From the NCBI GenBank assembly GCA_964016885.1, contig OZ024741.1, forward strand, positions 117,800,001 to 117,864,000: a DNA stretch of 64,000 bases. Reading direction: 5' to 3'. The translations under genes were made by a program, and so were the position numbers. Positions within the stretch are counted from its first letter, which is position 1; every line of letters begins with the position of its first letter. Positions 2,505 through 57,589 of the stretch are shown one piece after another. This DNA is from Eledone cirrhosa. Lineage: Eukaryota. Below the pieces are notes generated by a model. The model was not told the DNA's origin, made no database searches, and saw only the letters and a program-made list of their open reading frames with translations.

Positions 2505-3100
2505 GGAGAATCCCAGGTTGAAAGTTAGGTCGCTGTGAGTGGTGCAAGTTTATGCACCAAACAAGGAGTCCGAATACAGGTCTTTCCTTGATGAAGTCAC
2601 TGCAGCATTAGATGTAGTTAAGACTGAGTCATATATCCTGATGGGAGACTTCAATGCACATGTTGGCACTGACCACCTGACATGGAAAGGAGTGATTGGA
2701 AGGAATGGCGACTTCGATCTAAATAAACCTTATTATGCTTCTGTTCTAGCAATGGTCTCTCTATTATGATCACCTTTTTCCCGCACAGACACATCCATAA
2801 ATATATATGATGTAAGGGGAATCAGGGACAGACATCAATAATAGATTTTGTTATTGTCTCTGATCTCTTCCATTCTGTGCTGGATGTTCGTATTAAGAGA
2901 GGGGCTGGGCTGTCAACTGATCACCATCTAGTTACCTGCAACTTGCGACTACCTAAAGCCAAAGAAGCTCACAAAACTGGCAGGTCCAGGGTGACCACAA
3001 GATAAAGTGGGAAGCATTGGTGGATAAGGAAGTCAGGACCATGTATGCAGATACTATTGTCTCCAAATTCAGAGAACTCCCTGAGCAAACTGAGGATTAT
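2505..3100 (+). mobile_element. RTE-clade LINE AP-endonuclease fragment, inverted relative to the adjacent RT part
   Basis: VQVYAPN, ILMGDFNAHVG, and a downstream STDHHLV motif. Confidence 0.85.
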
Positions 3101-3104
3101 TTCT

Positions 3105-3520
3105 CTTAAATAAATTAAATATTGAATTTCCCAGCATGCAAGCTGGCTTGTATAGAGCTGATGATCTTTTTACTTTTAGAAATCATAGTAATTCTGAACT
3201 TGAGAGAATTAAAAAAACACCAATATAAATTCTTTAAAAACTATAACTTAAATATTACCATACTGAGGTTGTCAACTTCTTAGATGTCCCGTTTGAATTA
3301 GATACCGAGCTATACAGACCCTAACACAAACCAGGGGAGCATTTATTTTATGTGCATAAACTTTCCAGCCACCCTAAATCCATCATTAAATCTATTATTA
3401 ATAACGTATCTGGTAGAGTATCTAGTCATAGCGAATGAAGGAATTTTCAACTAAAATGATCAGTTTTATAACGAAGCATTTTCAAGGTCAAGATAAACTG
3501 AGAAAATACACTTCAACCCC
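3105..3520 (+). mobile_element. Penelope-like element RT/thumb remnant
   Basis: Manual translation gives VVNFLDV..YRP*HKP..YVHKLSSHPKSII, matching the PLE ORF at 17860 (VDFLDI..HKLNE..YIHKDSCHP). Confidence 0.7.
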
Positions 3521-12059: not shown

Positions 12060-12490
12060 GAAGTTGTTGTTGAGTAACTTTCAAACATATGTTGTTTTTA
12101 AGAAATGTAATATCAAATCCGTTGTGTATGGGGTAGAGATTACACACAACACAGAAGATTCTGAAGTTAACGAAAGATATGTCGGTATGGTGCAAGATTG
12201 TTTTAAACAACGTCTTTATGAATCTCCACTATCTTCAGGAATCCTGATGTGAGAACCAGTACTGCCCTGGCGAAAATAGTCTGGCAATTAAAGGAGAAAG
12301 GCGTCTCACATAAGATCACTTGGAAGATACTTGAAAGATCCAATCTTTACACCAATGGTACCAAGAAATGTCTCAGTCAGAGTGAGAAATTTAGGATATT
12401 ACAAGGTTTGTCATCTTCAAACAATATTTATTTGAACTGAAAGTGCGAAATATTTAGAGGATGCCTCCATCTCAACGGCCGAGATTAAGT
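12060..12490 (+). mobile_element. Penelope-like element GIY-YIG endonuclease remnant
   Basis: CNIKSVVY..YVGMVQDCFKQR, TALAKIVWQLK..ITWKIL, CEIFRGCLH; collinear with the PLE C-terminus at 18620-19034. Confidence 0.8.
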
Positions 12491-15173: not shown

Positions 15174-15559
15174 ACGCACCACGAAAAAAATTTATTCATA
15201 CACATATTTTCCAAAAATAACCCCCCTTTCCAAATTCCTGGTTGAAAGCCATCACTAATACTATACTCTTTTTTTTTTATTACCCACCACAAAAAGACCT
15301 GTGACAAACAAACAAACTAAAACATACATACACACACACAACTACAAAAACAAAAAAATACATAAGAGTGTATTGAAGTTTGCTTGAAGCATTGTGGAAT
15401 GATAAAAAATATTTTTTTGTCGTTTTGGAAGCCTCAACAATGCAGATGGATAAATCTCAGGGTAACAGAATCCGGTGGTGAAGAGAGAGATGTAAGGGAA
15501 TGTAGAATGAGATGTATAGTGTGTAGAGGAACGTAGGAAAGAGCGTAAAAAATAAAAAT

Positions 15560-15745
15560 AATTGTTTCTACGTTTGGCACAAGGCCAGCAATTACTCAGT
15601 ACATTACTGCTACTTTATTTTATTGACCCCGTAAGTATGAAAGGCAAAGTTGACCTCGGCGGGATTTGAACTCAGAATGGAAAGGGCCGTAACTCTATGC
15701 GTTAAAGCATGGTGTCCGACTCTCTACCGATACTACCACTCCACC
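15560..15745 (-). mobile_element. tRNA-derived SINE
   Basis: Reverse complement of the SINE at 16275; a second partial copy follows at 15755-15868. Confidence 0.85.
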
Positions 15746-16274
15746 ATAAAATAATTGTTTCTACTTTTGAAACAAAGTCAGCAATTACCCAGTGCATTAC
15801 TTGTACTTTATTTTATCGACCCCGTAAGGATGAAAGGCAAAGTTAACCTCAGCGGGATTTGAACTCACCATAAAAATAACACGAGATAGAGTTACCTTAA
15901 AACCAGTACATATAGTACAATAAATTGACAGCTAATGCCATCCCACTCCCACTATAAAAAGGAGCTGCTTTGACCTTTGCTTGGCCGCACCTATTCCGCG
16001 CGCATGTGCGCTCTACAGAATACCTCAGTTACACACAGACAGCGGACAACAGAGGCCACGTACCTTTCCTCTCCGACAGATAACTTTCCTCCCCGGAAAA
16101 CCCCCCAGTTGATGGATGCGAAATCCGAAATATAGGGACAATTAAATCTCTCCCAAGGTAACTATATCTCGCGACCGAGTGTCCGAGGCGGCCGGTACGT
16201 TCACTGTGAAAAAATTAGAGTGCTCAGAGCGAGCCGCACTAGCTTGCATACGAAAAGCATGGAATGATGGAAAA

Positions 16275-16460
16275 GGTGGATTGGCAGTATAGGTAGAGGG
16301 TCGGACGCCATGCTTTCCAGCATAGTTACGTCCCTTTACGATCTGAGTTCAAATCCCGCCGAGGTTAACTTTGCCTTTCATCCTTACGGGGTCGATAAAA
16401 TAAAGTACCAGTAATGCACTGGGTAATTGCTGGCCTTGTGCCTAAAGTAGAAACAATTAT
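16275..16460 (+). mobile_element. tRNA-derived SINE
   Basis: Pol III A box tggcagtatagg and B box gagttcaaatcc; core gcctttcatccttacggggtcgataaaataaagtaccag; AT-rich tail. Confidence 0.9.
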
Positions 16461-16776
16461 TTTTATTTTTCTACGCTCTTTCCTACGTTCTTCTACACAC
16501 TATACATGTCATTCTACATTCCCTTACATCTCTATCTTACCCACCGGATTCTGTTACCCGGAGATTTACCCATCTGCATTGTTGAGGCTTCCAAAACGAC
16601 GCAGTACATGCGTTATAGAATATTGAGTTGATCAATTGCGTCGGTTGAAGCAAGCAGAATTTTGGCTGCTTACTAAAACGTAGACACATAAACAGATAAC
16701 ACACACACACACAGGACTGTAGACAATATTAACATACGTCTAGATCGTTCATCAGATAGAAAGGTTATCATAACCT

Positions 16777-16844
16777 CTCTGTCTGAGGAGCGATCTAGAT
16801 GTATGTTAATATTGTCTAGAGTCCTGAAACCTTTGGTAATGGAG
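16777..16844 (+). ncRNA. Type I hammerhead ribozyme motif
   Basis: ctctgt-CTGAGGA-g..tctaga..tctaga..t-GAAA-cctttgg-TA-atggag; stem I is 6 bp including wobble pairs. Confidence 0.65.
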
Positions 16845-17015
16845 TAGTTATATATTGTGTTGTTCACTTTCTAATATATATATATATGAATGTATATATA
16901 ATGTATTTTGCAATACACTGTATGCTTAATTAAAAGCATTTCGAAGACCTTACGCTATTGTTTTAGATTAGTGACTATGTCACTTACTTTAATTTTCAGC
17001 AAACAGGGGAGATAA

Positions 17016-17060
17016 AGCTGACAGAGCTCTGTTTCGCACTTTTTGGTGCTTATCAAAGCT
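17016..17060 (-). ncRNA. Type I hammerhead ribozyme, U3-A8 core variant
   Basis: agct-TTGATAA-gcac caaaaa gtgc-GAAA-cagagctctg-TC-agct. Confidence 0.75.
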
Positions 17061-17334
17061 AAGTACTCCGTCTGTTTGCTGAAAATCATGAATGTTTGAT
17101 TCTTATAGAATTCTAGTAATAATCAGGAACTGATTATACAGAGCGGTTGCCGGTCAAGCTGAAATTGAAAATTAGAATTGGTGCTCTGAAATAGCGATAT
17201 ATATATGAATGTATACATAGTGTATTTTGCAATACACTGTATGCTTAATTAAAAGCATTTCGAAGACCTTACGCTATTGTTTTAGAGTAGTGACAGTCTC
17301 ACTTACTTTAATTTTCAGCAAACAGGGGAGATAA

Positions 17335-17379
17335 AGCTGACAGAGCTCTGTTTCGCACTTTTTGGTGCTTATCAAAGCT
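17335..17379 (-). ncRNA. Type I hammerhead ribozyme, U3-A8 core variant (tandem copy)
   Basis: Identical to 17016-17060, 319 bp away. Confidence 0.75.
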
Positions 17380-17644
17380 AAGTACTCCGTCTGTTTGCTG
17401 AAAATCATGAATGTTTGATTCTTATAGAATTCTAGTAATAATAAGCACCAAAAAGTGCGAAACAGAGCTCTGTCAGCTTTATCTCCCCTGTTTGCTGAAA
17501 ATTAAAGTAAGTGACAGTGTATTGCAAAATACACTATATATACATTCATATATATATCGCTATTTCAGAGCACCAATTCTAATTTTCAATTTCTGCTTGA
17601 CCGGCAACCGCTCTGTATAATCAGTTCCTGATTATTACTAGAAT

Positions 17645-19320
17645 CCAAAAAAGCGAAGTTCACACAGTTTGACATTGTCGATTTTTACCCGTCGATCTCA
17701 GAGACCCTGTTAAACAAAGCGTTGGACTTCGCTACCACTTATACCACCGTCGATGGTTTAGACAAGGAAATCATCGCTCACTGCCGGAAAACCCTCCTCT
17801 TCAACGACGGAGTAGCCTGAGCAAAGAAGTCTACATCTTCAGACCTGTTCGACGTCTCTATGGGATCGTTTGACAGTGCTGACGTATGTGACTTGGTTGG
17901 CCTTTTTATCTTAGACATATTACGTGTTAGATTCCCGGACTTCCACGCGGGAATATACCGTGACGATGGACTGACTTTATCGAGCCATAAAAGTGGTCAC
18001 GACCTCGACCGGTTTAAAAAAGACTTAGCTTCTACCTTCAATGAGTTAGGTCTTAGGATAACAGTAGCCACCAACCTCTCTAGCGTAGATTTTTTAGACA
18101 TTAATTTAGACCTTCGCACACACACCCACATACCCTTCCATAAGCTAAACGAGAAACTTAATTACATTCACAAGGACTCATGCCACCCTCTCACTGTTTT
18201 TAGAAACTTCGTGAAGAATATCAGTACTAGAATCTCAAACCTCTCCTCTAATAAGGCTATCTTTGACAGGGCGGCACCCTACTATAACACGGCGTTGGCT
18301 AACAGCGGCTTCTCACAACCTATCACCTACTCTTCCACTAGCAACAACACTATTAAGAAAAGTAAGCGCATCAATAGACAAACTATCTGGTTTTCTCCTC
18401 CCTTCTCACTCAACGTTAAAACCAATGTAGGAAAAAAAATTCTAGCCCTCTTAGATAGACACTTCCCCATAGGTCATAAATACCGCTCCATCTTTAACCG
18501 ACACAAAGTTAAACTAGGATACTCCTGCGCTAAGAACATGAAGGCCCACATCACCAGCAGCCCTAGGAGCAACACCCCACCAGGGTGCTCTTGCCGTAAG
18601 CCCGAAGCTTGCCCCCTTCAACAACAATGCAACACACCAGTTGTAATCTATGAAGCTGTGGTCACTTCCAACCGACGAAACGAACCACAGGAGGTCAAAT
18701 CTATGTGGGCATGGCGGAGGGCCGATTCAAGGAGCGTTTCCTGAACCACCAGTCTACCTTCAGATACCCGGACAGACGTTCATCCACGAAACTCGCGAGC
18801 CGTGTATGGTCCCTCAAGGACTCAAGTATAGGGTACTCCATTCAATGGAAAGCCATCACTAAGTCCAAGCCATACGCAAGGGGAAATCCGATGTGTAGCT
18901 TATGTATTGACGAACGAATAACTATCCTAAAGAGATTACGCAATAGTGATTGCCTAAACACGAGAAGTGAATTTTCCACACGTTGTCCACACGTCGCCAA
19001 ACATATATTGCATAACTACAATGCTCCGGACTGATTCTTTGTAATTTTATTTTTTATTTTTTTATTTTATTTTCAACCAAAAAAACTTTCCGGACTTTCG
19101 CAGTTATCTCCCTTACACCCCCCCCCCCCCCGCACGCAGTCTAGTATTGCCTGTGTGAAGTGACCGAGTTTCTGCGCATGCGCGTTCGTACGGTTGTCCT
19201 TCCTGTTCCTATAACCATACACATCCCGAGCTGAAGATTCGTGAAGGTGAAACAATTGTTCTTGGTATGGTGAACTAATTGTTGTGTAACCACTTCTACC
19301 TAACTCGTCCCTTGGACTGA
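17645..19320 (+). mobile_element. Penelope-like retroelement (Naiad-like), 5'-truncated; RT and GIY-YIG ORF ending at 19034, with one stop and one frameshift, followed by a pLTR
   Basis: FDIVDFYPSI, MGSFDSADVCDLVG, YRDDGL, IWFSPPFS, CSCRKPEAC (CxCx5C), VIYEA..GMAEGRFKERF, CSLCIDE, RSEFSTRCPH. Confidence 0.92.
19226..19265 (+). ncRNA. Minimal type I hammerhead in the Penelope pLTR
   Basis: ccgag-CTGAAGA-ttcgtgaaggt-GAAA-caattg-TT-cttgg, about 190 bp after the PLE stop codon. Confidence 0.8.
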
Positions 19321-19915
19321 GTGCTCTATCACTACGGATATTACCTTCCAGTGTTCCACCACTATATATATATATATATATATATAAATGGCTTCTACAG
19401 GGATACACACATATATATATGTGTGTGTGTATGTGGCTATCTGTTCTCTTTTGTGCCTTCTCTTCTTTTGATCTTAATCAGTTACTCCATCTTGTCATTT
19501 TTTTTTTGTTTTTTCGAGAATCGTGTCTGCTCATGCTCCTTCCCCTGTGTATGTGTACCCACGCTCGTCATGTCCCATGTGCGCCCTACGTGTGCGCGTA
19601 GTCATGCTTCCTTCACTGCTTGTGACTTTTTCTTTTTTTTACCTCTTCAATCTTCAGTCGTTAGGTTGCGAGCTGTCACTATTCCACTTGTGCTTTCTGC
19701 CTAGGCCAAGTCTATCTTCCACTGTGTTTGGCCTCCGCACTCTGTCCGAGTGCTGTGTCAGTTCTCTGCGTAACAGTATTTTTTTTCTTCTATGTTATCC
19801 ATTAAGCCTCCGCGTACCAGTCTGGCGTACCGGTATAGCACTGATGAGCTAAACCGCCACTTTGGATATTTTATATCAGGCTACTTTCTATTAAGCAAAG
19901 ATGTTTAGTAATATA

Positions 19916-21645: not shown

Positions 21646-24554
21646 TGTTTTCTTGATATAAGAACAATTGAACTAAGTGAATCTATAAAATAATGTAGAT
21701 TATGAAATAACTTGTTGGGTCTTGTATTTGAACACCAAAAATGTTCTTGTCATGTAACAAAGAATACTAAATTTCAGCATTTTTCTACATTTCCGTCTAA
21801 GGTAAAATAGTTTCTGATTTAAGCACAAAGCCAACAATTTGGTGGAAGAGAAAAGTCAATTAAATCGACCCCAGTACATCACTGGTACTTCATTTTATCG
21901 ACCCTGTAAGGTGAAAGGCAAAGCTAACCTCGACAGGATTTGAACTCAGAACGTAATGGTACGTAACTATAAACCACAAAGCATGTTGTCAGCCACTCTA
22001 CCAATACTGCCAATCCACTGCCCTTGACTAAGCTAAAATGGTAATGTAGTTCAGCACAATGCTCAAAACGTCTTGTAACAGCAACTTCGATTGAGAGTCA
22101 TTTTGTTGTAGAAATCAACACAAACTTTAATGCTAACTTACAGCCATTTATTGAGGCAAATAATTCTTTCTTTTTTGCTTAGTGTGCAGAAGAATTCGTA
22201 ATCGTAATGCCAGGTGTGGCGATAGACAAATAATATCAGCAATGGAAAAAATCAATGGAAACAATGTTTCTTTGGTTCAATCTATCGATCAGCTCCTTTC
22301 CCTTAGTTCAATTATTTCTAAACCAGAAAAAAACAAAGCAAGATGAGTGTCTTCCGGATTTTGTAGACCCAAACCCTGCCTTGCAGAAAATGAAATACGT
22401 GAAAGACAGTACATTTTTCATCGAAGTTTTTGCTGCAATTAGAGTAGTGATTATTAGATAATTTCAAAGTTTTAGAATCCATAAAGTATTTTGTTTGGTT
22501 TGTCTGAGTGTCTTAAATCTATCAAACCTGCAGTTTTAAACATTACAAAATATTTTTTTTTTTTAGAAAATGGAGAGAACATAACTAAAATAAACTTGCA
22601 GTGGAAGCAGTTACGGAGTGTTTAGTATACGATTTCATTTTAGAATGAAGTTTCTTTGTATAGAAAGTTTGCTGGGCAAAACTTGCTCAAAAAGCAATTT
22701 AGCATTAAAACGTCTTATGCCTTATGCGTCTTATCCAAATGCTTATTTGAACGTGTTATACAAATGCTTATCCGAAAAGACTTTTAACGCCGTTAATACT
22801 ATTCATTCAAAATCGCACAATAAGCCTCTTTCGTCTTATCTCTATTGAGTTATATGTTTAAGATGTAATCATTAACTTATCATGCCACTAGCACTAAAGA
22901 GGTTGTGATGTCCATGGCAACACAAAAGAGATTTCTCTACTCTACATTATCAACCACATTGCAGAGTGTATTTTACCTTTGAAAGAAGTTTTATCCGTAA
23001 AATATGATTTAAAGCGTAATGGTGAATGCTGCTTTCGATAATTTTTTTTATCGAACCGGTATGTTACAGGACACAAAGACAAACAAACGTAAACACAGAC
23101 ACACTAGCGTTGTGGTTGATGTTTCAAGAAGGCTGAATCGATCACTATGTGGTCTATGTGAAGGTGTTCGTTGTGACGTTTTCTATGGGTGCATCTGTGT
23201 GTGTGTGGATGTGATGATGCCCGTAATGTCAGCTTAAAAGTACAATCATCAACAAACAGAAGCCACAAATAAACAATACATGTATGGAGCAGAGTGGCTT
23301 CTATGGCTGTTCCACGCATGCGCAATCCAGACACGTGGACCAGTTAACGAAGAACATACCGTTCGTTTTTGTTTTGCATCGTTTTATTTTTATTTTGATG
23401 GGGGGGGGGGGGGGGAATCCCTAAAACATTATGTTGAAATATATTGAGTAAGAAAAATATTACTTTGTTTTGTTCTATCTGTAAATCTGTCATCATTTGC
23501 CCTTTATGTCTACCGCATTGTACCAGCTTTCTGAAATACTTATCAATCATTTTCCGAATATACGTGTTTCTCTGAGTAAAATTGACCCAGTCAGATTCCC
23601 AGTTCGGACATCTTAGAAGGGTTGTATTGTTTAATTCTTTCTTCATAAAAAGTTCCAAAGAAAGCAGTAATAATTATTAGGGGTTCGTGTAGAAGGAGTG
23701 AAAATCATGTAATCTATGCACAGACGAAAGATGGAACATCGTAAACAATTACATTCCACGAATAATTGTCTACATATGAGAACAGATTTTTTAAACCGCT
23801 GCCCACACATGTCCAAATATATGCTTAAAACTGGAAACATCCGGACTAAGAACCGCTCACAAACAGACCACAGTTAACTCTCCTCACTAAGAACACTTAG
23901 CTTCTATAAACCCTTCAATATGAAAATTCTCGCTAATTAACATCCAGTAAGCCACCTAAGTTAGCCTCCTCAGACACATGCGCCTCACCCACCCACACCC
24001 TCCTATAAATTTCTACCTTATTAGATCGAAACCTTATAGCTTCAATAACTCTCTCTCCTCATGACATATAAGTATGAAATAAGTTAGTTCCCATAATCTG
24101 CCATTCTAACAAAATGGGTTACCTACCCATTTCATGCTTTAAAGAAGATTTTATTGAAATAGATAGATTGCACGCGCTTGTGGGCATGTGTGTGTATGTG
24201 TGTGCATGCGTGTGTATGTGTGTGTGAATGTGTGTATGTCTGTGTGCATGTGTGTATGTGCATGTGTGCGTGTATGAGGGTGTGTGCGTGTATGAGGATG
24301 TGTGTGTGTGTGTGTGTGAGGATGTGTGGGTGCAAGGGGTGAGAGCGAGAAAGAATCAGAGAAAGAAAGAAAGAAAAAGAAAGAAAAAAAGAAGGAAAGT
24401 GATAATGCGGATGAGTAATTGATTGGTAAATAGGTAGACGACCGTAAGAAAGAAAACATGATACCTGGAGTGTTGAAAGAAGATCAACTAATAGACAAGT
24501 TCTCTGTCGTGAGCCTACTACAGTTAATGTATGTTTCTCTGCCTGCCTGATTAT

Positions 24555-36910: not shown

Positions 36911-38009
36911 AAATATACCCTAGAAAACGTTTCTGCAAGTAATAAAATTTAAAAAAACAAATTTTTCCAGTGCCTTAAGCCTTGCTATCACCTGCAGTAA
37001 TGCTACAAGTGTGTTGGTTTTCCTCGAAAAGTATTAGAATGAGGCTCTGATACCACTTAAGGAGTATAACCGTTTGACACACTTAGTGTTGACTTAATAT
37101 TATCTTTTGTTTTGATTCTATATTTTCATATGAAATGTTTATGTAATTAAGTAATAGCTATGGCATTTTTGTTTGTAATTGGCATATTTATTTGGTAAAA
37201 AATGTGAACTTTGCTATTATGTAATTTCATGTATTCTCTGGTCTGAGATAATCATGCCATGATAAAATGCACCCAGTACATTCTGCAAATGGATAATGTT
37301 GGTGCCATGATAAAATTCACCCAGTACACTACGTAAAGTGGTAGTGCTGGTGCCATTTCAAAATGCACCCAGTACAGTCCATAAAGGGATAATGCTGGTG
37401 TCATAATAAAATACACTCAGTACACTTTGTAAAGTGATAATGTTGGTGCCGTGACAAAATGCATCTAAGACACACTTTAAAGGAGTAATGCTGGTACCAT
37501 GATAAAATGCGTACAAAATACTGGTGTCGTGAAGAAGAAGAAGAAGGAGAAAGAGGAGGAGACTTTAATTACCATATATTTAATTAAAGTCATTGCCAGT
37601 GTTTTCAAGTAGATTTGAAAATAAATATAAGCATAAACACTTTAAGATAAACAAATTGATATCAAAAAAGCATAAGAGATTACATATTTAATGAAATGGT
37701 CTTCCATTGGTTTTGACGATGAGTGTTCCAGTTGTTTGAGCAATGTTACAGTCTGATCATGAAATTAACATGTAAATAGTTGAGCATTCCACAGACACGT
37801 CAACCTTTAATGTAATTCTCAGGGAGATTCAGCATGACAGTGTGAAATATGGCTGGCTCTTTCAATTTCACTCAAAAAGAGCCTAGGCTATATGGTATAT
37901 GGCACTTACCTTAGATGTCCCATGGTGGGATCAAACCTGAAAGTTAATGATTGCAAAGCAAACTTTTTTATACCATTCAAATTGGATTCTGAGGAAAATT
38001 AGAGAAATA

Positions 38010-38440
38010 TCCACCCCGTCCTATCCCACAACAACTAAGATATACATGTCATGCAGAAATAAATAATGCCCCCTCCCCAACAATTAAGATACATGTCACA
38101 CACAAATAAATACCCCCTCCCCCACAATTAAGGTACCTATGTCACACACAAATAAATACCCCCTGACCCCACAATTAAGGTATCTATGTCACACAAATAA
38201 ATAACCCCTGACCCCAGCTATTAAGATTCATGTCCTACACAAATAAATACCCACTGACCCCACAATTAAGGTACCTATGTCACACAAATAAATACCCCCT
38301 CCCTCACAATTAAGGTACCTATGTCATACACAAATAAATACCCACTGACCCCCCAAAACAATTAAGATACCTATGTCACATAAATAAATACTGCCCTCAC
38401 CGCCACCCCAAGCCCCAACAATTAAGATACATGTCACAAA
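38010..38440. repeat. Minisatellite, ~45-bp unit, about 9-10 copies
   Basis: cccacaattaaggtacctatgtcacacacaaataaatacccc repeats. Confidence 0.92.
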
Positions 38441-39731
38441 CATTAGTTAGCTAGCTATTGAATATTCCATGCATTATCTGTAACCTGTATTTATCCCAGA
38501 GTTTTAACCCTTTAATGTTCAAACCGGCCAAAACCGGCCAGAATTCTCTACCTTTTTCTGTTGAAACTGGCTGTAACTGGTCACTCAAACTGATGTTAAG
38601 GTATTGTTCTCAAAATAAATACTTTCAAAATCTCATAGATTCGATATTATGTGAGACATGTGAGGTAAAGCCTTTACTATGAAAATATAGAGTAATGCGA
38701 ATGTGGCTGATGAAAGTCAAAAAAGGTGGCAAATTGGCAGAATCGTTACATCATCAGATAGAATGCTTTGTGATATTTGTTTCAACTTTCTGCTCTCTGA
38801 GTCCAAATCCCGCCATGGTCAACTTTGTCTTTCATCCATCCAACTAAAAAGTACCAATCTAGTACTGGAGGTCAATTCTTCTTCTATATCTCTTTCTCTC
38901 TTCCTCTCTCTCTCTCTCTCTCTATCCTTCTCTGGAAGAAATCTGCTGTATTCAGATCTGGAAAGGAGATGGGCTCTGGCTGATTTTAAAATGCTCTAGA
39001 AACACTGTATGTCAATCCAGTGCTCCTACAACTCCCCCGGGAGATACAGGACCATGCATGCATAAAGGTCACTTAGTAGAAATAGGTATATATCATGGTA
39101 AAAATACGTATATACCATAGTTGAAATAGGTATATATTATAGTTGAAATAGGTATATATTATAGTTGAAATAGGTATTTCATACCATATAATAAACATAA
39201 GTTATAAAGGCCATACAAACTGGGACAGCGGTTAAGAAGCTATTAACCACCTAAGCCAAAAAAACTAGCAAGCTAAGCAGGTAAAACAAAATATGATATG
39301 AACATATATGTGTGTGTGTGTGTTTTTATCCTTATCACCATTTAACGTCAATTTTCCATGTTTACACTGGTTGTCATGTTCTAAGGCTATACCAGTCAGG
39401 TGACCATGTCCTGTCTATATGCTCCATTTTGACATAGTTTTTACAGCTGGATGCCTTTCCTAACACCAACCACTTTACAGCATTTTATCATGACTCTAGT
39501 ACTACCATTTTACTGGGTGGACTTGGTGCTTTTTATTGTAACACCAGCACTACCACCTAACAATGCTTTTCATCATGGCATCAGGATAGACTGAGTGCTT
39601 TTTATCATAGCACCAGGTTTTTTATATCATGGTACCCAGTTGACTGGGTGTGTTTTATCAAGGCATCAATAATACCTCATTATATATTACACAAATATCA
39701 AGAAGTGTATCTCCTAATTGTGCAATCAATA

Positions 39732-39779
<48 letters not shown>

Positions 39780-39919
39780 TTAAAGTCCACTTTCTATGTT
39801 AGCATGGGTTAGATAGGTTGTCCCATTTGAGGCAAGTTGGGTCAAGTGACTGTGTCTTGCTCATATAGAACTGTTTCTAGCTAGATTTCTACAGCTGGAT
39901 GCTCTTCCTAACGCCAACC

Positions 39920-41695
39920 ACATTTACAGTGTGTGCTGGGTGCTTTTTGTCGTGACTCCTACACGACCACTTTACAGTGTGTGCTGGGTGCCTTTTGTCA
40001 TGACTCCTACACGATCACATTTACAGTGTGTGCTGGGTGCTTTTTGTCATGACTCCTACACGACCACTTTACAGTGTGTGCTGGGTGCCTTTTGTCATGA
40101 CTCCTACACGACCACATTTACAGTGTGTGCTGGGTGCTTTTTGTCGTGACTCCTACACGACCACATTTACAGTGTGTGCTGGGTGCTTTTTGTCGTGACT
40201 CCTACACGACCACTTTACAGTGTGTGCTGGGTGCCTTTTGTCATGACTCCTACACGATCACATTTACAGTGTGTGCTGGGTGCTTTTTGTCATGACTCCT
40301 ACACGACCACTTTACAGTGTGTGCTGGGTGCTTTTTGTCATGACTCCTACACGACCACTTTACAGTGTGTGCTGGGTGCCTTTTGTCATGACTCCTACAC
40401 GACCACATTTACAGTGTGTGCTGGGTGCTTTTTGTCGTGACTCCTACACGACCACTTTACAGTGTGTGCTGGGTGCTTTTTGTCGTGACTCCTACACGAC
40501 CACTTTACAGTGTGTGCTGGGTGTTTTTTGTCGTAACACCTACACGACCACTTTACAGTGTGTGCTGGGTGCTTTTTGTCGTGACTCCTACACGACCACT
40601 TTACAGTGTGTGCTGGGTGCTTTTTGTCGTGACTCCTACACGACCACTTTACAGTGTGTGCTGGGTGCTTTTTGTCGTGACACCTACACGACCACTTTAC
40701 AGTGTGTGCTGGGTGCTTTTTGTCGTGACTCCTACATGACCACTTTACAGTGTGTGCTGGGTGCTTTTTGTCGTGACTTCTACACGACCACTTTACAGTG
40801 TGGGCTGGGTGCTTTTTGTTGTGATACCTACACGACCACTTTACAGTGTGGGCTGAGTGCTTTTTGTCGTGACTCCTACACGACCACTTTACAGTGTGGG
40901 CTGGGTGCTTTTTGTCGTGACTCCTACACGACCACTTTACAGTGTGGGCTGGGTGCTTTTTGTCATGACACCTACACGACCACTTTACAGTGTGGGCTGG
41001 GTGCTTTTTGTTGTGATACCTACACGACCACTTTACAGTGTGGGCTGGGTGCTTTTTGTCGTGATACCTACACGACCACTTTACAGTGTGGACTGAGTGC
41101 TTTTTGTTGTGATACCTACACGACCACTTTACAGTGTGGGCTGGGTGCTTTTTGTTGTGACTCCTACACGACCACTTTACAGTGTGGACTGAGTGCTTTT
41201 TGTTGTGATACCTACACGACCACTTTACAGTGTGGACTGAGTGCTTTTTGTTGTGATACCTACACGACCACTTTACAGTGCGGGCTGGGTGCTTTTTGTC
41301 GTGATACCTACACGACCACTTTACAGTGTGGGCTGGGTGCTTTTTGTCGTGATACCTACACGACCACTTTACAGTGTGGGCTGGGTGCTTTTTGTTGTGA
41401 TACCTACACGACCACTTTACAGTGTGGACTGAGTGCTTTTTGTCGTGATACCTACACGACCACTTTACAGTGTGGGCTGGGTGCTTTTTGTCGTGATACC
41501 TACACGACCACTTTACAGTGTGGGCTGGGTGCTTTTTGTTGTGATACCTACACGACCACTTTACAGTGTGGACTGAGTGCTTTTTGTCGTGATACCTACA
41601 CGACCACTTTACAGTGTGGGCTGGGTGCTTTTTGTCGTGATACCTACACGACCACTTTACAGTGTGGGCTGAGTGCTTTTTGTTGTAACACCTAA
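39920..41695. repeat. Minisatellite, 48(49)-bp unit, about 37 copies, derived from an RTE/SINE 3' tail
   Basis: ttacagtgtgtgctgggtgctttttgtcgtgactcctacacgaccact; preceded by the (CAT)n and tail sequence at 39732-39920. Confidence 0.97.
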
Positions 41696-43330
41696 ACTAT
41701 ACAGCTTTTTACAATTATTTGAATGTGTATGTGTGTATCCTTAAGGCCTTCTGTAGGTCTGTGAAACTATGGATTTATGCCTAGAATGTTCCTCTCCAAA
41801 GTACATGCAGTGACAAGGTTTTTTATGGAAGACCAGCAGTTGCCCATCTATACAAGTTTCCCATGGGTGGCAAATTGGCAGGGTCATTAGAATGTCAGAT
41901 AAAATACTTTGCAGCATTTGTTCTGGTTCTTAACACTCTGAGTTCAAATCCTGCCTGAGGTCAGCTTTGCCTTTCATCCTTTCGAGGTCGATAAAAAGTA
42001 CCAGTTAAGTACTGGGGTCAATTCTTCTTCTATATCTCTTTCTCACTTCCATACTCTCACTCTCTATCCTTCTCTGGAAGAAAGCTGTTGTACTCAGTCC
42101 TGGAGAGGGGATGGACTCTGCCAGGTTTCTTTTAAATTCCTAGAAACACTGTATGTCAGTACGGCACCCCTACGACCCCCTTAAGAGTTATGGGACCATA
42201 TATATACATACATACAAAGTCCCCCCCCCTCTCCACATCACTATTGTTGTTGAAGGGAAAAACAATAGCATCTGTGATATTGCGGATGAATACAAAAAGC
42301 TGAAAGAGATATCGCTCAGGACAGGTATCTTATTTATCAACCAAAAGGTGGTCGTATTGGTGACACAACAAAAATCACCCAGCCCACTCTGTAAAGTGGT
42401 CATGTTGGTGACACAATAAAAAGCACCCACCCCACACTGTAAGGTGGTCTTGTTGATGACATGACAAAAACCACCCAGTCCACCCTGTAAAGTGGTTGTG
42501 TTGGTGACATGACAAAAAGCATCCACTCCACCCTGTAAAGTGATTGTGTTGGTGACACAACAAAAAGTATCCAGTCCACCCAGTAAAGTGGTCATGTTGG
42601 TGACATGACAAAAAGCAGCCAGTTCAACCTGTCAGTTGGTCATTTTGGTGCCACAATAAAAAGCAGACAGTCAATGCTGTAAATGTAGTTGGTGTTAGGA
42701 AGGGCATCCAGCCATAGAAATCAAGCCAGAAACAGTTCTGAATGAGCCAGACTCAGTCATCTGATCTGACTTGTCTCACAACGGGACAACCCGTCTAACC
42801 TATGCTAGCGTGGAAAATGGATGTTAAATTGTGAGGATGATGATCATAAGATGAAAGGCAAAGTGTTGACCTGGGTGGGATTTGAACTCAAAACACTGAG
42901 ACATGGATCAAATACTACAAATCATTCGTATGAATTTTTATAACACACCAGTGTCTAATACACTATGCTACGACTGTATTTCTTTATCTGATTCTGACAA
43001 TGTCATATACCTAATTATTCATCATCGTCATCATCATCGTTTTCATTATTATGATTATCATCATTATCATCATCATCATTATTATTATTATCATTATCAG
43101 TACTATGACTACAACACATAGAACATTAAAGTATTTAGTCTAACACATCAAATTTTCACAATGATCTGTCTACTATTAAAGATACTGTAAACATTTGAAT
43201 TAACAAACCTGTTTTTAGACACCTTCTGTTAAATCATTACAAGTTAATAAGAGTTAAATTAATTTATTGGAGTGGTATATTTTGAATCTAATCTACACTT
43301 GTTTTTCACAACCAACTATATTTTTTCAGG

Positions 43331-56829: not shown

Positions 56830-57589
56830 GCACTAAGTTCATCCTGTATAGTGCCACAACACCAAAAGTATCCAGTCCACCCTGTAAGGTGATTATGCTG
56901 GTGACACAAAATGCTTCCAGTCCACCCTGTGTAGTGGTCATGTTGGTGACATGAGTAAAAAGCACCCAGTCCACTCTGTAAGGTGGTCATACTGGTGACA
57001 CAACGAAATGCACCCAGTCCACATTGTAACATGGTTGGCATTAGGTAGAGCATCCAGCTGTAGAAACCAAGCCAAAGTACAGATCTATATCAGCAAGACA
57101 TGATCGCCTGACCTGACTTGTTTCATAACGTGACAACCTGTTTAACCCATGTGGAAAAATGGATATTAAACATTGATGATGATGGGTTAAAAATATATAT
57201 ATGTACACACACACATATATGTATAATTATCATCATTCTTATGTTCACTTTTCCATGCTAGCATGGGTTGGACAGGATGTTTTGAGACAATATTTAACTG
57301 CTGGATGTACTTTCTTATGCCAATCCTTTTAGTCACTTTTATGACATGCAGGTATATCGTCATTATCATCATCATCATCATCTTCGTTTAACATCTATCT
57401 TCCATGCTAGCATGGGTTAGACTGTTAATCTATTCTAAAAACAGTATACACAAAAATTCCTAGGCATTAGAAATATGGTAATGAAACGGTGAAGGGGAAA
57501 ACATAGTTTGAGGATGGGAGAGCTATATAATTGGTTGATTAAAAACTATTCATCATCATCACCATCATCATCATTTTATGTCTGTTGTT

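What the first reader, a model, noticed from the sequence alone, without database searches (positions are those of the whole stretch)
16872..17645. Tandem ~319-bp monomers with a hammerhead carrying a compensatory U3-A8 core
Seen: both monomers carry, on the minus strand, agct-TTGATAA-gcac caaaaa gtgc-GAAA-cagagctctg-TC-agct, enclosed by a longer stem (ttttcagcaaacag/ctgtttgctgaaaa). Established: positions 3 and 8 form a Watson-Crick pair in the active hammerhead, normally C3-G8. Here both are changed, to U3-A8, which preserves the pair. Inference: this double change argues for selection on catalysis. Cleavage at the two GUC sites 319 nt apart would release a unit-length RNA, as expected for a retrozyme.
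Basis: partly seen in the sequence, partly recalled or inferred. Interest (0 to 1): 0.8.

Follow-up and report, generated by a model that had tools for sequence, protein, structure and literature searches.

The report
Penelope-mobilised retrozyme with swapped ribozyme core
This is one copy of a several-hundred-copy 319-base repeat whose predicted self-cutting RNA carries an already known swapped core base pair, and whose insertion ends indicate that it is likely copied around the genome by the enzyme of a Penelope-type jumping gene, a partnership long proposed for such RNAs.

Summary
Observation confirmed: two type I hammerheads with a U3-A8 core lie 319 nt apart on the minus strand. The locus is 1.78 units, an inverted core-less piece, and a 5'-truncated Penelope-like element (PLE) of Hydra type. 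U3-A8 is not new (PMC3088659, PMC4209133) and is one inherited state: 671 of 685 cores genome-wide, none C3-G8. The covariation is real one level up: the closest sister subfamily is C3-G8 (92 of 100 listed), a further family U3-A8 (21 of 22), the most distant C3-G8 (100 of 100 listed); no family is fixed at a mismatch. The tandem's unconstrained minimum-energy fold is the double hammerhead; the monomer folds off. Insertions carry the PLE signature: two fixed 3' ends about 27 nt apart, (TA)n targets, head-to-head arms with one end of each kind (38 of 41), and three direct joins to PLE sequence. Best reading: a non-LTR retrozyme, dimer-gated, mobilised by Hydra-type PLE reverse transcriptase (0.75). 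Cleavage, transcription and circles were not shown; no RNA run was available. New member of a known kind; its value is the insertion record linking retrozymes to PLEs.

The parts
16878..17445 (-). Left arm: 1.78 head-to-tail units of the 319-nt repeat; its 3' end (unit position 142, the short end type) abuts a (TA)n run at 16872-16878
17312..17404 (-). Hammerhead 1 with outer 14-bp stem; U3 at 17375, A8 at 17370, GAAA 17354-17351, palindromic helix III 17351-17340, C17 at 17339
   Evidence: positions counted from the sequence
16993..17085 (-). Hammerhead 2, identical core; U3 at 17056, A8 at 17051, C17 at 17020
17020..17338 (-). Predicted unit-length RNA between the two GUC sites (319 nt)
   Evidence: fold
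17441..17644 (+). Right arm, repeat part: inverted piece, unit 286-319, 1-46, deletion, 99-229; hammerhead incomplete
17645..19034 (+). 5'-truncated PLE reading frame (RT from motif A on, CxCX5C linker, GIY-YIG-type endonuclease), one stop at 17818-17820 and one frameshift near 18654-18744; young family, about 97% identity among the 40 best copies; Hydra type by the linker motif
   Evidence: Pfam gave no hit
19226..19265 (+). The PLE's own minimal hammerhead with C3-G8 core and GUU site; two stem II changes against family copies
19299..19388 (+). PLE optional tail (to 19362) and (TA)n run: the long end type of this PLE family

Best explanation
This is an insertion of a non-coding 319-nt hammerhead repeat family (a non-LTR retrozyme) whose tandem transcript is predicted to self-cleave as a double hammerhead and likely circularise, and whose RNA is likely reverse-transcribed into (TA)n sites by a Hydra-type Penelope-like element protein. 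Shown in sequence: family-wide U3-A8, sister families fixed at C-G or U-A, two fixed 3' ends, (TA)n targets, paired arms, copying across the GUC site, direct joins to PLE sequence. Predicted by folding only: monomer and circle sit in an off fold in which stem I plus U3-U4-G5 pair with the palindrome; two adjacent units fold as a double hammerhead with a 12-bp shared helix III. Inferred: cleavage, ligation to a circle, and that a PLE protein dimer primed both target strands, one copy starting on the repeat RNA at its short site, the other on PLE RNA at its tail site and then switching to the repeat RNA.
For: Core counts 671 of 685 U3-A8, 0 C3-G8; sister subfamily 92 of 100 listed C3-G8 with the same stem I; family C 21 of 22 rows U3-A8 with changed but still pairing stems; family B 100 of 100 listed C3-G8. 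Stem II pair 113 U-A, 74 C-G, 9 other of 196 rows. Tandem minimum-energy fold equals the double hammerhead, ensemble share 0.31; two separate monomer folds 2e-11. 3' ends at unit 139-142 in 43 and 166-178 in 44 of 107 pieces; paired arms have one end of each kind in 24 of 26 and 14 of 15 in fresh loci, as described for PLE tails and the two initiation sites of a purified PLE protein (PMC8557442, PMC11167929). 66 of 69 arms that reach the GUC site cross it. Direct same-strand joins to PLE sequence: window, L103 (same PLE family, E 2e-52, short end left and PLE tail right) and L166.
Against: No RNA evidence of any kind. Crossing the GUC site fits an uncleaved precursor as well as a circle, and arms are short (median 264 nt; 79 of 90 hold at most one whole hammerhead), which a freely rolling circle does not require. 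For the anole PLE the ribozyme was dispensable for insertion and no reads ended at its site; 8 of 9 Xenopus retrozyme dimers did not cleave in vitro. No PLE with a terminal repeat similar to the unit was found among the loci held, so the partner is inferred from joins and end types, not homology. N7, a free position, is as invariant as the core, so invariance inside the family says little. Rfam score is below the gathering threshold.
Confidence: 0.75

Rival explanations
1. A PLE-mobilised non-autonomous repeat copied from uncleaved linear transcripts; the hammerhead fold is kept for another reason (protein-assisted late cleavage, RNA stability, binding) and no free 319-nt circle is made.
For: Reverse transcription crosses the GUC site with no pile-up of 5' ends; short arms; ribozyme dispensable for the anole PLE in vitro; monomer fold predicted off.
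Against: The 3-8 pair matters only in the active fold, yet is kept as a Watson-Crick pair in all four families; arrays of up to 27 units in family B and one of more than 12 in this family suit a circular template; related animal repeats do yield circles (PMC7229834 abstract).
Confidence: 0.17
2. These are merely 5'-truncated terminal repeats of an autonomous PLE not yet found, with the hammerhead as the usual PLE passenger.
For: Same end types and arm layout as PLEs; U3-A8 is known from Schistosoma PLE repeats; the genome could not be scanned whole for such a partner.
Against: Upstream of the 3' end, arms wrap round into the 319-nt period instead of running into a reading frame; no locus held shows a reading frame flanked by the unit; 20 of 20 loci of the neighbouring PLE family lack the unit except the window's own.
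Confidence: 0.05
3. The window's join between repeat and PLE is a later accident (nested insertion plus deletion), not one insertion event; the repeat is still PLE-mobilised but the joins say nothing about the partner. This rival concerns the join only.
For: Both elements target (TA)n and cluster together; only 3 bases of microhomology at the join; only 3 of 41 loose pieces join recognisable PLE sequence.
Against: No (TA)n at the join, no PLE 5' part on the other side, same strand, and short-plus-tail ends across the composite in both the window and L103.
Confidence: 0.2

Closest known systems
Metazoan non-LTR retrozymes (Cervera and de la Pena 2020, PMC7229834; Li et al. 2026, bioRxiv 10.64898/2026.07.22.740005)
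   Same: Type I hammerhead once per unit, 170-400 nt non-coding tandem unit, low G+C, dispersed short arrays, highly self-paired monomer, predicted dimeric activation.
   Different: U3-A8 core; helix III a perfect 12-nt palindrome that also holds the stem I sequence; insertion ends and joins tie it to PLE chemistry, which the passages I read propose from co-occurrence and terminal-repeat homology only. RNA and circles not shown here.
Schistosoma mansoni Cercyon PLE minimal hammerheads with U3-A8 (PMC4209133)
   Same: Same core covariation, about 1,300 hits reported; PLE context; palindromic helix III.
   Different: Those are minimal motifs in PLE repeats, mostly single; here a 4-bp stem II with G-C base, a long helix III and a non-coding tandem unit.
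Natural U3-A8 hammerheads (Perreault et al. 2011, PMC3088659)
   Same: Same pair swap, stated there to be active in vitro.
   Different: Here the swap can be placed between close sister families in one genome.
Hydra-clade PLEs (Craig et al. 2021, PMC8557442) and the anole Poseidon element (Frangieh et al. 2024, PMC11167929)
   Same: CxCX5C linker and (TA)n targets for the neighbouring PLE; optional tail, inverted 5'-truncated arm, two initiation sites.
   Different: The repeat encodes no protein and shares no detectable sequence with the neighbouring PLE; its tail is about 27 nt, the PLE's about 64 nt.

Membership tests
type I hammerhead ribozyme | Core N3-UGAN-N8-A, GAAA, UH with three stems, 3-8 Watson-Crick pair | tested here: met
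   U3-A8
type I hammerhead ribozyme | Rfam model score at the gathering threshold | tested here: not met
   HH9 26 bits against 52, E 0.0037; that model is for another hammerhead subgroup, so weak evidence
type I hammerhead ribozyme | Stem covariation across copies and families | tested here: met
   stem II pair 187 of 196 paired in two forms; stems I, II and outer stem differ but pair in families A', B, C
type I hammerhead ribozyme | Self-cleavage after H17 | not testable with these tools
   folding only
type I hammerhead ribozyme | Loop 1-loop 2 tertiary contact | not tested
   internal loop on stem I and 6-nt loop II are present; contact not modelled
non-LTR retrozyme | Short non-coding tandem unit (about 170-400 nt), one type I hammerhead per unit, two consecutive complete motifs | tested here: met
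non-LTR retrozyme | Dispersed multicopy family without LTR structure | tested here: met
   685 cores and 930 matches to a second marker; arm maps
non-LTR retrozyme | Expressed as unit-length linear and circular RNA | not testable with these tools
   no RNA holder listed; runs laid were contigs of unknown kind
PLE-mobilised insertion | Optional tail at one end, variable 5' truncation, inverted arm, microsatellite target | tested here: met
autonomous PLE terminal repeat (pLTR) | Repeat flanks an RT-endonuclease reading frame | tested here: not met
   no such locus among those held; whole genome not scanned
Hydra-clade PLE (neighbour, 17645-19362) | C-terminal GIY-YIG-type domain, CxCX5C linker, hammerhead, (TA)n target | tested here: met
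Hydra-clade PLE (neighbour, 17645-19362) | Placement in the Hydra clade by RT phylogeny | not tested
   no reference proteins at hand; Pfam silent

The most novel reading that the evidence does not exclude
These insertions are a direct genomic record that a Hydra-type PLE protein dimer mobilises animal retrozymes with which it shares no sequence, at times copying a retrozyme RNA and a PLE RNA into one site; and the ribozyme is a dimer-gated switch whose core pair flipped from C-G to U-A in this lineage because its helix III had become able to trap C3 in a dead fold.
Probability: 0.35. Interest if true: 0.72.

Novelty: new member of a known kind. Interest (0 to 1): 0.48.

Why it matters
The swapped pair alone is ordinary. 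Two things add value. First, which enzyme spreads animal retrozymes has been proposed (PLEs) but argued from co-occurrence and repeat homology in the papers I read; fixed initiation-type ends, paired arms and joins to PLE sequence give exact RNA positions to test with a purified PLE protein. Second, four related families in one genome, fixed at C-G or U-A with different helix III designs and very different array lengths, form a natural series for asking whether cleavage is under selection in these elements and how it sets array length.

Tried and rejected
Expression: no RNA holder listed; three coded runs laid were contigs of unknown kind, showing only that the family is present. A pile-up of 5' ends at the cleavage site was sought and not seen. 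An arm-length peak at 460-481 nt (12 of 157 arms) did not replicate (1 of 52 in 460-485): rejected. 'U3 exists to avoid the off fold' holds by energy for this family (median 3.7 against 6.7 kcal/mol if C3-G8, 57 copies) but not for family C (1.5 against 1.8), and the C3-G8 subfamily with the 8-nt palindrome thrived at 5.7: kept only as a family-specific idea. Two independent switches: the best tree implies two, but a single origin is not rejected (p-AU 0.187). The median printed was mis-indexed and is discarded; one search replaces it. Naiad was considered for the neighbour and dropped (endonuclease is C-terminal). No homologous autonomous partner among loci held. The microRNA matches are microsatellite hairpins below threshold. 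Earlier scan notes: nothing found. The kinetic paper on 3-8 exchanges was not held, so rates for U3-A8 are not cited. Literature searches for the end signature in retrozymes listed no paper whose title or abstract start reports it; that is not proof of absence, and supplements were not read.

Full report
Observation. The minus strand holds two identical type I hammerhead motifs with core UUGAUAA, C17 at 17339 and 17020, 319 nt apart, each inside a 14-bp outer stem; the region folds at z -7.48 against 200 shuffles. Rfam HH9 matches at 26 bits, E 0.0037, under its threshold of 52. The direct repeat is 1.78 units (16878-17445); 17441-17644 is an inverted, deleted piece without the 5' core. At 17645 it joins a 5'-truncated reading frame with RT motifs, a CxCX5C linker and a GIY-YIG-type domain, broken by one stop and one frameshift. 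Pfam gave no hit; the linker, the (TA)n target and its own C3-G8 minimal hammerhead match the description of Hydra-clade PLEs (PMC8557442, passages). The family is young, about 97% identity among the 40 copies scored of 1718 candidates. The genome is a 3.0-Gb animal assembly; a cephalopod is my guess from memory, not tested.

Is U3-A8 a compensatory change? A pattern open at positions 3 and 8 finds 685 cores, none for the reversed control. Five are not U3 and nine are U3 without A8, leaving 671 U3-A8, 2 C3-A8, 5 U3-G8, 7 others and no C3-G8. So the two window copies are one inherited state, and single changes look like decay after insertion (inference). The comparison that counts is between families, found in flanks of fetched loci. 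Subfamily A' has the same stem I, a weaker stem II base and a different helix III: 127 matches, 92 of the 100 listed C3-G8, counted by eye, 1 U3-A8, 7 others. Family C has different but pairing stems and U3-A8 in 21 of 22 rows, overlapping loci counted twice. Family B, a 310-nt unit about 79% alike over unit 62-215, has a minimal core: 1376 matches, all 100 listed C3-G8. A tree of 28 natural copies gives B, then C, then A' with A nested (86/89 support), implying two switches; one origin is not rejected (p-AU 0.187). Either way the pair changed on both sides at least once and no family sits at a mismatch. Since the 3-8 pair belongs to the active fold (established; single changes abolish and the double change partly restores cleavage in PMC11167929), this supports selection on the catalytic fold. 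Stem II shows the same within the family: 113 U-A, 74 C-G, 9 other of 196 rows, though this is one event, and the free N7 is as invariant as the core.

Folding (predictions only, no tertiary terms). The single hammerhead's best fold is off: stem I plus U3-U4-G5 pairs with the helix III palindrome; the hammerhead fold lies 3.4 kcal/mol above the ensemble, 6.4 if the core were C3-G8 (medians 3.7 and 6.7 over 57 copies). The circular unit folds off too. The natural tandem's unconstrained best fold is the double hammerhead with a 12-bp shared helix III, ensemble share 0.31 (0.058 with C3-G8), against 2e-11 for two separate hammerheads. This fits the known arrangement in which multimers cleave and monomer circles are spared (PMC4209133, parts 1-2 of 4 read). 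Relief of the off fold may explain U3 here, but not in family C (1.5 against 1.8), and A' copies with the 8-nt palindrome spread at 5.7; neutral compensatory drift in an A+T-rich genome is an equal default.

Insertion anatomy. In 60 loci picked by a marker outside the ribozyme (70 fetched, 10 overlapping ones dropped), 43 of 107 pieces end at unit 139-142 and 44 at 166-178, mostly against (TA)n; 5' ends are scattered. Twenty-six loci have head-to-head arms, 24 with one end of each kind; in 40 fresh loci picked by the ribozyme pattern, 14 of 15. This is the PLE tail and inverted-arm layout (PMC8557442), which a purified PLE protein explains by two internal initiation sites and extension of both target strands (PMC11167929, parts 1-2 of 4). 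The neighbouring PLE family shows the same two end types. Of 69 arms that reach the GUC site, 66 cross it, so the template was a circle or uncleaved. Arms are short (median 264 nt; 0, 1, 2, 3 whole hammerheads in 33, 46, 9, 2 of 90; one array of more than 12 units reached its locus edge and was left out), whereas family B reaches 27 units in a row; this contrast is unexplained.

Joins. Of 264 pieces, 55 have a non-standard 3' end and 41 of these have no adjoining repeat piece; two run straight into PLE coding sequence (the window; L166, a 46% relative) and one, L103, into the terminal 110 nt of the window's PLE family, ending in its tail and (TA)n. In the window and L103 the left arm has the repeat's short end and the right arm the PLE's tail end, as one insertion would; the window join has 3 bases of microhomology and no (TA)n. 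I read these as template switches (inference). No PLE with a terminal repeat like the unit was found among loci held; the genome could not be scanned whole.

What is known. Natural U3-A8 cores: PMC3088659 (one passage) and about 1,300 in Schistosoma PLEs. Non-LTR retrozymes of 170-400 nt give linear and circular RNAs, and PLEs are named as candidate mobilisers (PMC7229834, abstract and passages). A 2026 preprint (parts 1-3 of 5) supports PLE origin by co-occurrence and repeat homology, and found 8 of 9 dimers inactive in vitro. In the parts I read none uses tail ends, paired arms or joins; searches listed nothing further on it, and supplements were not seen. PMC7151607 and PMC2920678 (passages) added nothing.

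Against the reading: no RNA holder was listed, so expression, cleavage and circles are open; the anole PLE did not need its ribozyme.

Verdict. A real feature: a new non-LTR retrozyme family with a known core variant, likely mobilised by Hydra-type PLE machinery (0.75).

Noticed in passing
L052:1-1265; G000:C1:36482524-36490617: Sister family B, 310-nt unit with a minimal C3-G8 hammerhead, 1376 cores, forms head-to-head arrays of up to 27 units, far longer than this family's; looks very young.
   Followed up: partly
L207-L236; L237-L261: Subfamily A' (C3-G8, two helix III lengths) and family C (U3-A8, 2036 search candidates) are further related repeat families.
   Followed up: partly
L116:1468-2095: A 165-nt derivative (unit 55-219) lacking the hammerhead is repeated three times and ends at the standard tail site, suggesting the signal for copying lies there and needs no ribozyme; one case only.
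   Followed up: no
L045:1150-1450, L057, L141: Repeat pieces joined directly to other stem-loop or hammerhead-like repeats that end in (TA)n; possible template switches among different small RNAs.
   Followed up: no
window 16712-16870: Fold-back piece (57-nt arms) with hammerhead-like words whose 3' part resembles a motif in L034; probably the end of another PLE-type repeat that supplied the (TA)n target.
   Followed up: no
window 3094-3435, 12228-12473, 23761-23826: Further degraded PLE-like RT and endonuclease fragments.
   Followed up: no
window 15419-15876 and 16275-16600: Copies of another common dispersed repeat in inverted orientation.
   Followed up: no
window 37255-42683, 56859-57029: Several 46-49 nt minisatellite arrays, one of 37 copies at 95% match.
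   Followed up: no
run X4 and X5 on window 16850-17700: One X4 contig over the hammerhead has depth 398 against 4-21 for the other listed pieces, run kind unknown; a second organism (X5) holds relatives, one loose end showing C3.
   Followed up: no
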